The position numbers were made by a program, and so were the translations under genes. Below the pieces are notes generated by a model. That model saw only the letters and a list, made by a program, of their open reading frames with translations. It made no database searches and was not told where the DNA came from. Source: Octopus vulgaris (Eukaryota). Taken from it: a stretch of 64,000 bases of DNA. Below are positions 5,482 through 6,496 of the stretch, in pieces. Position 1 is the stretch's first letter; every line of letters begins with the position of its first letter. Where the stretch lies: contig OX597814.1 of assembly GCA_951406725.2 (NCBI GenBank), positions 93,496,001 to 93,560,000 on the forward strand, read 5' to 3'.

Positions 5482-5821
5482 ACAGTTCTATATTCAAGAG
5501 ATGAGGAGTTATGTACATTATTTACATTATTTACATTTGACAAATATTTGTCCTCATCTTGTTTATTGTTAACACAACGTTTCAGCTGATATACCCCCCA
5601 GCCTTCATCAGGTGTCTTGGCGAAATTTCGAACCTGGGTTCTCATTCCTAAGGTATTTATCGATGTCGTTATTATTATTATTATTATTATTATTATTATT
5701 ATTATTATTATTATTATTATTATTATTATTATTATTATTATTATTATTCAGGTCACTGCCTAGAATCAAACTCAGAATCATGGGGTTAGTAGCCCACGCT
5801 CTTAACCACTACGCCATATGC
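5482..5821 (-). mobile_element. SINE-like unit: tRNA-like head + (AAT)n + hammerhead-containing tail (complete copy)
   Basis: Minus strand: 73-nt tRNA-like head (5821-5749), (AAT)n, tail with HHR at 5616-5571, ending ...aatatagaactgt at 5482. Confidence 0.7.
5571..5616 (-). ncRNA. Minimal type-I hammerhead ribozyme
   Basis: Minus strand: GACAC-CUGAUGA-A-GGCUG-(10 nt)-CAGCU-GAAA-CG-UU|GUGUU. Stems I and II pair and stem III is the palindrome ACGU. Predicted cut between 5576 and 5575. Confidence 0.8.
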
Positions 5822-5900
5822 TCACAGGCATATGGTGTAGTGGTTAAGAGCGTGGGCTACTAACCCCATGATTCTGAGTTTGATTCTAGGCAGTGACCTG
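5749..5900. repeat. Near-perfect 73-bp inverted repeat of a tRNA-derived (Pol III promoter-like) head
   Basis: Arms 5749-5821 and 5828-5900 differ at one position. A-box-like TGGTGTAGTGG, B-box-like GAGTTTGATTC, anticodon-loop-like CT-ACT-AA. Confidence 0.9.
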
Positions 5901-6032
5901 AATAATAATAATAATAATAATAATAATAATAATAATAATAATAATAATAATAATAATAATAATAATGATAATAATAATAATAATAATGATAATAATAATG
6001 ATAATAATAATAATAATAATGATAATAATAAT

Positions 6033-6116
6033 ACAACAAATCACAGCACATACCCAAGGCACACAGAGCTGTGCTCGGTAGTGAAGTGAAAGCACGCTAT
6101 AAAAATAAAACTACTG
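6033..6116 (+). mobile_element. 84-bp 3' terminus of R4/Dong-like LINE inserted in (AAT)n
   Basis: Differs by one base from the reverse complement of 19193-19276. (TAA)n on both sides. Confidence 0.85.
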
Positions 6117-6308
6117 AATAATAATAATAATAATAATAATAATAATAATAATAATAATAATAATAATGATGATGATGATGATGATGATGATGATGATGAT
6201 GATGATGATGATGATGATGATAATAATAATAATAATAGTAATAATAACAACAACAACAACATTGAAAAATACCTTAGGAATGAGAACCCAGATTCAAAAT
6301 TTCCCCAA

Positions 6309-6354
6309 GACATCTGATGAAGGCTGGAGGGTATATCAGCCGAAAAGTTGTGTT
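6309..6354 (+). ncRNA. Minimal type-I hammerhead ribozyme (stem III palindrome broken)
   Basis: GACAU-CUGAUGA-A-GGCUG-(10 nt)-CAGCC-GAAA-AG-UU|GUGUU. Core intact. A C>A change turns ACGU into AAGU. Confidence 0.7.
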
Positions 6355-6496
6355 AACAATAAACAATATAAGGACAAATATCCGTCAAATGTAAATAATG
6401 TGAAAAGATACACGTCTCTTATTTTTTACACTTTTATTTTCTCTTTTTTCTAAAAATATTTTTGACCGCTTCCAGAAATTTCTCACTTTTATTTCT

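What the first reader, a model, noticed from the sequence alone, without database searches (positions are those of the whole stretch)
5482..6402. tRNA-headed, microsatellite-spaced, hammerhead-carrying SINE-like element arranged as a head-to-head palindrome
Seen: a unit of [73-nt tRNA-like head with A/B-box-like motifs]-[(AAT)n]-[about 190-nt tail with a minimal type-I HHR] occurs twice, diverging from a 6-nt apex at 5822-5827. Known: minimal HHRs occur in PLE pLTRs, PLEs often form inverted 5' duplications, and non-autonomous HHR repeats with their own promoters exist (Schistosoma Sm-alpha, newt satellite 2, retrozymes). Inference: this is a Pol III-driven, self-cleaving, PLE-mobilised retroposon. 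I do not know whether it has been described for this lineage.
Basis: partly seen in the sequence, partly recalled or inferred. Interest (0 to 1): 0.85.

Follow-up and report, generated by a model that had tools for sequence, protein, structure and literature searches.

The report
tRNA-promoter terminal repeat of Penelope retrotransposon
This palindrome is a decayed insertion of the terminal repeat of a protein-coding Penelope-like retrotransposon, and that repeat carries a tRNA-derived segment at whose edge most copies begin, so the element likely uses a captured RNA polymerase III promoter to spawn short, SINE-like copies of itself.

Summary
The palindrome is real, but the unit is not a separate SINE. 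It is the pseudo-LTR (pLTR) of an autonomous Penelope/Poseidon-type element. Head, (AAT)n and hammerhead tail follow the RT + GIY-YIG ORF in 26 of 29 ORF-anchored loci, and precede it in full-length copies. The inverted arrangement, one-sided extension and target-site duplication are ordinary PLE features.

What I did not find in print is the tRNA-derived head with A/B boxes inside an autonomous PLE's pLTR. Exact 20-mer counts drop from 3,735 at the head's 5' edge to 1,013 forty bases upstream, and 78 of 81 non-ORF heads end within 7 nt of tRNA +1. This marks a discrete RNA start, likely Pol III, where the cDNA folds back to give the recurrent apex. The ORF strand also lacks TTTT (suggestive only).

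Corrections: the right arm holds an 84-nt LINE 3' end; both hammerheads and both B boxes in the window are mutated; the inner arms were homogenised after insertion. Pol III transcription and self-cleavage are untested.

The parts
5476..5483 (+). left target-site duplication (8 nt exact; last 2 nt overlap the element end)
   Evidence: same 8-mer at 6406-6413; duplications of 8 nt or more flank 37 of 76 inverted pairs, 1.6% in shuffled pairings
5482..5520 (-). 3' extension present on the left arm only; in full-length elements it runs on into the ORF start
   Evidence: one long plus one short end in 58 of 76 inverted pairs
5521..5668 (-). left pLTR tail
5571..5616 (-). left minimal type-I hammerhead; predicted cut between 5576 and 5575; G10.1-U11.1 wobble
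5669..5748 (-). left (AAT)n spacer
5748..5823 (-). left tRNA-derived head; A box 5816-5806, B box 5771-5763 with C56 to T
5822..5827 (.). apex: decayed form of the family's recurrent fold-back hairpin (4-bp GC stem, 2-nt centre at 5824-5825)
5826..5901 (+). right tRNA-derived head; A box 5833-5843, B box 5878-5886 with C56 to T
5901..6032 (+). right (AAT)n spacer, part 5' of the LINE fragment
6033..6116 (+). later insertion: 5'-truncated 3' end of an RT + zinc-knuckle + restriction-like-endonuclease LINE (R4/Dong-like; that label is recalled)
   Evidence: 98.9% to window 19189-19276; follows the LINE ORF in L062 (RVT_1 and zf-RVT)
6117..6257 (+). right spacer continued, (AAT)/(GAT)/(AAC)n
6258..6401 (+). 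right pLTR tail, short 3' end
6309..6354 (+). right minimal type-I hammerhead; predicted cut between 6349 and 6350; C15.2 to A breaks the dimer palindrome
6406..6413 (+). right target-site duplication

Best explanation
The unit is the pseudo-LTR of an autonomous Penelope/Poseidon-type retrotransposon, and its tRNA-derived head likely acts as a Pol III promoter whose short RNA is likely copied by the element's own RT and endonuclease, the cDNA likely folding back at the head's 5' edge to give the palindrome. Shown: pLTR identity, PLE ORF, pile-up of 5' ends within 7 nt of tRNA +1, recurrent apex, one-sided extension, target-site duplication. Inferred steps: (1) transcription starts about 6 nt upstream of tRNA +1 in any pLTR, 5', 3' or solo. 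(2) A short RNA holds a single minimal hammerhead, which should not cleave as a monomer, so it survives intact. (3) It is reverse transcribed at a GIY-YIG nick. (4) The cDNA 3' end snaps back on a 4-bp GC stem and primes an inverted second arm. (5) In this copy the inner arms were later homogenised, a LINE 3' end inserted into the right spacer, and point changes likely disabled both B boxes and both ribozymes.
For: Head directly after the ORF stop in 26 of 29 EN-anchored loci besides the query, tail in 24 of 29. Head and/or tail in the same sense upstream of the ORF start in 7 of 30 loci. Full-length L213 and L214; L214 and L216 begin at the head's 5' edge. ORF: RVT_1, HTH_animal and GIY-YIG clusters at 0.95, DKG and CxC..H..H motifs. 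Exact 20-mer counts: hammerhead 6,611; mid-head 3,917; head 5' 3,735; -40 nt 1,013; -151 nt 884; -391 nt 521; reversed controls 0. That is 73% lost in 40 nt against 13% over the next 110 nt. Of 91 heads, 10 are ORF-linked, 22 fold-backs and 59 other; 78 of the 81 non-ORF heads keep 7 nt or less of native upstream sequence. In a position-ordered sample 5 of 30 heads run into the ORF, three of them near-identical. No tRNA-like segment or A+B box after the ORF in 39 control PLE loci (best score 47; 12 of 24 family loci score 50-66). Two controls, L254 and L280, have CCAAT and TATA motifs in this slot (read by eye). No TTTT in the 2.6-kb majority sense strand, 4.7 expected, P 0.0065. N7, the one free core position, shows T to A in 11.4% of 167 tails against at most 4.2% at 26 other T sites, which hints at constraint on the source elements.
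Against: No direct sign of Pol III transcription or cleavage. Three RNA-seq runs gave equal depth on both strands, a profile like genomic copy number, and no pile of starts at the head or the cut site. The native junction is itself a 9-bp hairpin (-11.5 kcal/mol as RNA, z -2.5) that could stop RT on a long template. TTTT avoidance is not specific: 2 of the 12 control loci with 1.9 kb or more of ORF also have none, one of them L254 with a TATA box; against an order-2 Markov null P was 0.19. Fold-back copies count the head twice, which inflates the step. The 20-mers differ in composition and the counts were not corrected. A relaxed A+B pattern is found in only 9 of 24 decayed family loci.
Confidence: 0.62

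Rival explanations
1. Ordinary 5' truncation of a long PLE RNA: RT pauses and snaps back at the native hairpin at the head's edge, and the tRNA-like head is a passenger left by an old SINE insertion in the 3' UTR.
For: A native 9-bp hairpin is centred on the apex. ORF-linked and short copies share majority sequence and age. Strong 5' truncation with inversion is typical of PLEs (PMC8557442, passages).
Against: A hairpin should stall RT at its 3' foot (about +10), not at the apex (inference). On a long template many fold-backs should keep the 2-nt bulge at -8/-9, yet only 3 of 81 non-ORF heads extend past -7. Two upstream pLTRs also begin at the head edge.
Confidence: 0.2
2. The discrete start is real but is a Pol II internal promoter of the pLTR, as in Drosophila virilis Penelope, and the tRNA likeness is incidental or supplies downstream elements.
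For: PLE pLTRs carry promoters, and Penelope has an internal one (PMC6765202 and PMC8557442, passages). A 38-47-nt GT..AG segment in the tail could be an intron that joins an upstream ATG to the ORF (read by eye). Kojima argues Pol III is too weakly processive for autonomous elements (PMC10886601, passages).
Against: A and B boxes lie at tRNA spacing about 14 nt after the inferred start. By eye there is no CCAAT/TATA pair in the slot where L254 and L280 have one. The unspliced frame is open through the would-be intron and aligns to a 61%-identical homologue across its last codons. No such skip is among the 15 joints listed, 100 not shown.
Confidence: 0.12
3. One reading: an independent non-autonomous SINE family (tRNA head plus borrowed PLE tail) with its own source copies.
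For: Short copies outnumber ORF-linked ones about 3 to 1 or more, and they start at a tRNA-like head.
Against: The head is part of the autonomous element. There is no diagnostic difference or age difference between short and ORF-linked copies over 76 nt of head and about 145 nt of tail. The simple repeat is internal, not a 3' tail.
Confidence: 0.06

Closest known systems
Endonuclease-positive Penelope-like elements, Penelope/Poseidon clade (PMC8557442: passages and sections 3, 15; PMC4209133: parts 1-2 of 4)
   Same: Single RT + C-terminal GIY-YIG ORF with CCHH and DKG motifs; pLTRs in partial tandems; inverted 5'-truncated partner; 30-40-bp one-sided extension; minimal hammerhead in the pLTR; opposite-strand hammerheads 100-700 bp apart are already reported in Schistosoma.
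   Different: A tRNA-derived A/B-box segment and an (AAT)n tract sit between the stop codon and the hammerhead; 5' ends pile up at its edge; the sense strand lacks TTTT. None of this is in the passages read.
Schistosoma Sm-alpha / Sj-alpha SINE-like repeats (seen only as reviewed in PMC6765202, passages)
   Same: Pol III-type promoter followed by a hammerhead in a short dispersed repeat.
   Different: Those are non-coding, often tandem, with canonical hammerheads and no identified parent. Here the same unit is the terminal repeat of a coding PLE, has a minimal hammerhead and inserts as inverted pairs.
TRIMp3: Cassandra, Helenus, Ajax (PMC10886601, passages)
   Same: A small-RNA-derived Pol III promoter inside a terminal repeat, proposed to arise by SINE insertion into the repeat.
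   Different: Those are non-autonomous LTR elements under about 1.3 kb with PBS and PPT; the paper expects autonomous partners to use Pol II and not share the LTR. Here the tRNA segment is in the repeat of the autonomous element itself.
tRNA-derived SINEs, including octopus OK/OR1/OR2 (recalled, not read, not compared)
   Same: tRNA-derived head (best match Arg), 250-350-nt copies, tens of thousands of copies.
   Different: Internal microsatellite, PLE ends and inversions, and a head shared with the autonomous partner.
Non-autonomous Chlamys PLEs such as MRC1 (PMC8557442, passage)
   Same: Short PLE derivatives that share the 3' end with autonomous families.
   Different: They are separate families with their own pLTR tandems; no tRNA head is reported in the passage read.

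Membership tests
EN+ Penelope-like element | Single ORF with RT and C-terminal GIY-YIG-type endonuclease bearing CCHH | tested here: met
   RVT_1 E 1e-10; HTH_animal and GIY-YIG clusters 0.95; CxC and two His, DKG motif. Pfam GIY-YIG itself was not hit; the motif reads VY..YKG.
EN+ Penelope-like element | pLTR on both sides of the ORF (partial tandem) | tested here: met
   L213 tail-ORF-head-tail, L214 head-tail-ORF-head; upstream pLTR parts in 7 of 30 loci
EN+ Penelope-like element | Inverted 5'-truncated partner and one-sided 30-40-bp extension | tested here: met
   Inverted upstream copy in 21 of 29 and 18 of 28 loci; long plus short ends in 58 of 76 pairs
EN+ Penelope-like element | Target-site duplication of variable length | tested here: met
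   8 nt or more in 37 of 76 pairs, null 1.6%; 8 nt in the window
EN+ Penelope-like element | Intron in or near the pLTR (some members) | tested here: inconclusive
   GT..AG candidate by eye; unspliced frame open and homologous; no listed splice joint
Penelope/Poseidon clade | No extra Zn-finger motif in the RT-EN linker (unlike Neptune, Nematis) | tested here: met
   Linker read: at most two isolated Cys
Penelope/Poseidon clade | Placement on an RT tree with named references | not tested
   Homologues returned carried no names; no tree was built
Minimal type-I hammerhead (PLE type) | CUGANGA and GAAA core, extra nt before stem II, G10.1-C11.1, palindromic 15.2-16.2, 4-5-bp stem I | tested here: met
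   Met by the family majority; all features kept in 11 of 118 unselected copies, the core in 50 of 118; each window copy breaks one feature
Minimal type-I hammerhead (PLE type) | Self-cleavage as a dimer | not testable with these tools
   No assay; RNA-seq showed no end pile at the cut site
Minimal type-I hammerhead (PLE type) | Stem covariation within the family | tested here: inconclusive
   No double change among the six commonest pair types of 13 pairs in 167 tails; none is expected in neutral copies of few sources
tRNA-derived SINE | tRNA-derived head with A and B boxes | tested here: met
   not recognised by ARAGORN or Rfam
tRNA-derived SINE | Separate non-autonomous family whose head is absent from the autonomous partner | tested here: not met
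   Head follows the ORF in 26 of 29 loci; same majority sequence
tRNA-derived SINE | Transcribed by Pol III | not testable with these tools
   Indirect only: 5'-end step, TTTT depletion
Sm-alpha-type repeat | Head-to-tail tandem copies with canonical hammerheads | tested here: not met
   Copies are mostly single or inverted; stem III is minimal
TRIMp3 | Non-coding element between two true LTRs with PBS and PPT | tested here: not met
   The sequence between direct repeats is a PLE ORF; PBS and PPT were not searched

The most novel reading that the evidence does not exclude
An autonomous, protein-coding retrotransposon that has swapped its Pol II promoter for a captured tRNA promoter and is transcribed end to end (about 2.9 kb) by Pol III. 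It has purged TTTT terminators from its ORF (Phe TTC 215 against TTT 60; 12 T-runs against 35-67 expected), uses the hammerhead dimer to process the long RNA, and sheds its own SINE-like progeny from the same promoter.
Probability: 0.3. Interest if true: 0.82.

Novelty: new variant of a known kind. Interest (0 to 1): 0.55.

Why it matters
The palindrome and the ribozyme are textbook PLE features. The tRNA-derived promoter in the pLTR of a coding PLE appears not to be described in the papers I could search. If Pol III drives the short RNA, the family shows one element being both the autonomous retrotransposon and its own SINE, a direct route to hammerhead-bearing Pol III repeats such as Sm-alpha. 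The fixed 5' end also exposes how PLE inversions form, because thousands of events share one fold-back point. If Pol III also makes the 2.9-kb coding RNA, that goes against the published expectation that autonomous elements must use Pol II. In practice, about 24,000 hammerhead-bearing copies (rough estimate) would be split by annotation tools into 'SINE' and 'Penelope'.

Tried and rejected
ARAGORN and Rfam: no tRNA or hammerhead; the microRNA matches are hairpin and simple-repeat artefacts below their cut-offs.

RNase P cut at tRNA +1 as the source of the 5' ends: rejected for fold-back copies, which need bases -1 to -6, and the head does not form a cloverleaf.

Palindrome as a functional ribozyme dimer: rejected; the cores are on opposite strands and a read-through RNA folds as one long duplex that buries them.

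Separate short-copy subfamily: none seen in 64 against 19 copies. Core-versus-flank conservation: small difference, no significance test.

Sequencing runs: no RNA holder listed. Three raw RNA-seq runs added by species label and one contig set were laid: the element is present on both strands, with no informative starts or ends.

First metagenome scan found nothing; the second gave 80 control PLE loci, of which 69 had enough ORF for the T-run test and 39 enough 3' flank for the tRNA test. Solved structures: only weak RT matches. DNA context of the 60-66% identical homologues could not be fetched, so I do not know whether they carry the head. Earlier findings: three look-ups, nothing.

Literature: ten searches returned no paper whose listing or read passages describe a tRNA-bearing PLE pLTR. 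Subscription journals, Repbase and Dfam were not searchable, one relevant paper was not held, and the repeat library of PMC13282606 lies outside its readable supplement.

Full report
Observation. Two diverging arms meet at 5822-5827. Each has a 76-nt head, an (AAT)n tract and a tail with a minimal type-I hammerhead motif whose predicted cuts fall before 5575 and 6350. The head resembles this genome's tRNAs far beyond shuffles (64, 59, 56 against a maximum of 49), best tRNA-Arg(TCG) among 35 distinct tRNAs, which do not cover all isotypes. It keeps A and B boxes at tRNA spacing but not the cloverleaf, and ARAGORN and Rfam do not call it. Both window ribozymes and both B boxes carry changes at conserved positions, so this copy is probably dead (inference).

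Family. The genome holds 6,611 exact matches to a 20-mer of the hammerhead. As 32 of 118 unselected copies match it exactly, there are roughly 24,000 copies, about 7% diverged from their majority. Head and tail are linked in 19 of 29 tail-anchored and 25 of 28 head-anchored loci, with an inverted partner upstream in 21 of 29 and 18 of 28 (window loci excluded).

It is a pLTR. In L061 the head follows a stop codon by about 30 nt, and the ORF encodes a PLE-type RT and endonuclease. Anchoring on the endonuclease gave the head directly downstream in 26 of 29 other loci and the tail in 24 of 29. Anchoring on the ORF's 5' part gave pLTR sequence in the same sense upstream in 7 of 30 loci, and L213 and L214 are full-length. 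The protein has RVT_1, matches HTH_animal and GIY-YIG clusters, has DKG and CCHH motifs and lacks the Neptune/Nematis linker finger, which by the features in PMC8557442 (section 3) points to Penelope/Poseidon; no tree was built. Of 76 inverted pairs, 58 have one long and one short 3' end and 37 have a target-site duplication of 8 nt or more (null 1.6%); the window has both. It is therefore one PLE insertion event of the known inverted type (PMC8557442, passages; PMC4209133, parts 1-2).

A discrete 5' end at the tRNA edge. Exact 20-mer counts along the element are 6,611 (hammerhead), 3,917 (mid-head), 3,735 (head 5'), 1,013 (-40), 884 (-151) and 521 (-391). The fall is gradual except across the 40 nt before the head. 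Caveats: the motifs differ in composition, one has two degenerate letters, and fold-backs count the head twice. Sequence-level mapping agrees: of 91 distinct heads from loci not anchored on the ORF, 10 run into the ORF, 22 are perfect fold-backs of 11 nt or more about a 2-nt centre, and 59 join something else; 78 of the 81 keep at most 7 nt of native upstream sequence. Short and ORF-linked copies have the same majority sequence and similar divergence, so they come from the same sources. A template that ends about 6 nt before tRNA +1, about 14 nt before an A box, is what a Pol III start would give (established knowledge of type-2 promoters; inference here). Its cDNA would end in a 4-bp GC hairpin able to prime the inverted arm. 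The native junction is itself a longer imperfect hairpin, which keeps the RT-stall rival alive.

Controls. In 39 PLE loci from metagenomes there is no tRNA-like segment after the ORF; two show CCAAT and TATA motifs in the same slot. The family's 2.6-kb majority sense strand has no TTTT (4.7 expected by shuffling, P 0.0065; P 0.19 under a self-trained Markov null). Seventy natural in-frame stretches, which are not independent, have 12 runs against 35 or 67 expected, and Phe is TTC 215 to TTT 60. Sixty-nine control loci together show no depletion (308 against 283), but 2 of the 12 longest also have none, one with a TATA box. This is suggestive of Pol III read-through and no more.

Ribozyme. The majority motif meets the published minimal-hammerhead features (PMC4209133). 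Only 11 of 118 unselected copies keep them all, non-CpG core positions are only slightly more conserved than flanks, and no compensatory pairs appear, as expected for neutral decay. The excess of T to A at N7 (11.4% against at most 4.2% at other T sites) suggests that source elements varied only where the ribozyme allows. Genomic copies run 50-85 nt past the cut site, so the RNA that is copied must be uncut or religated; a short RNA with one minimal hammerhead would be (monomers did not cleave in PMC4209133).

Why this copy looks so neat. Its heads share 5 derived changes and differ at 1 of 74 sites, while its tails share 1 and differ at 13 of 143 (Fisher P 0.038). In 21 other head-to-head pairs the heads share 21 and differ at 171 of 1,291 sites. 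The inner arms were therefore likely homogenised after insertion, as by conversion in a cruciform (inference).

Expression. No RNA holder was listed. Three RNA-seq runs of the same species label as a holder show the element on both strands with depth like its genomic profile and no informative ends, as expected of copies inside host transcripts. This says nothing on Pol III or cleavage.

Known or new. The host is not stated; the flanking repeats look like octopus SINEs as I recall them, which guided the searches but was not tested. A 2026 octopus repeat annotation (PMC13282606, parts 1-2 of 3 and a supplement search) lists Penelope and Dong-R4 families without describing structure. The nearest concepts are Sm-alpha (PMC6765202, passages) and TRIMp3 (PMC10886601, passages), both non-autonomous. 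PMC6962438 (passages) only counts hammerheads in a squid. Ten searches found no tRNA-bearing pLTR of a coding PLE, but Repbase, Dfam and most subscription papers were out of reach. Verdict: a new variant of a known kind; pLTR identity is near certain, the Pol III short-RNA mechanism about 0.6, Pol III transcription of the whole coding element about 0.3; interest 0.55.

Noticed in passing
window 19189-19330 (-): Second, longer copy of the same LINE 3' end (98.9% to 6033-6120), inserted in an (AAT)n tract beside another repeat; the LINE looks young and (AAT)n-targeted.
   Followed up: partly
window about 51745-51843 (+): Another, heavily truncated pLTR 3' end with the long extension and no hammerhead.
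   Followed up: partly
window about 5035-5480 (+): The palindrome is inserted in the 3' tail of a different SINE-like repeat with a (TG)n middle; four related matches lie elsewhere in the window. Resemblance to octopus OR-type SINEs is recalled, not tested.
   Followed up: no
window 6497-6764 and 4704-4857: 24-nt tandem repeat (8 listed copies) right of the palindrome and a degenerate AT-rich repeat to the left.
   Followed up: no
L062, L036, L010, L034, L046, L154: The (AAT)n spacer of the pLTR often holds later insertions of LINEs and SINEs.
   Followed up: partly
L061:1500-3830: Inverted pair in which both arms carry ORF sequence, showing the same arrangement at kilobase scale.
   Followed up: yes
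L254 and L280, 100-260 nt after the ORF: Control PLEs with CCAAT and TATA motifs ahead of a hammerhead-like motif with a variant first core strand; L254 also has no TTTT in 2.2 kb of ORF.
   Followed up: no
L213:1694-1740: A 45-nt skip with GT..AG ends on the strand opposite to the element, seen in all three RNA runs; it could be a host splice or a deletion in one expressed copy.
   Followed up: no
L074:2088-2110: The native ORF-to-head junction reads like an old fold-back end with a 2-nt insertion, which hints that the head joined the ORF as a short insertion (inference).
   Followed up: partly
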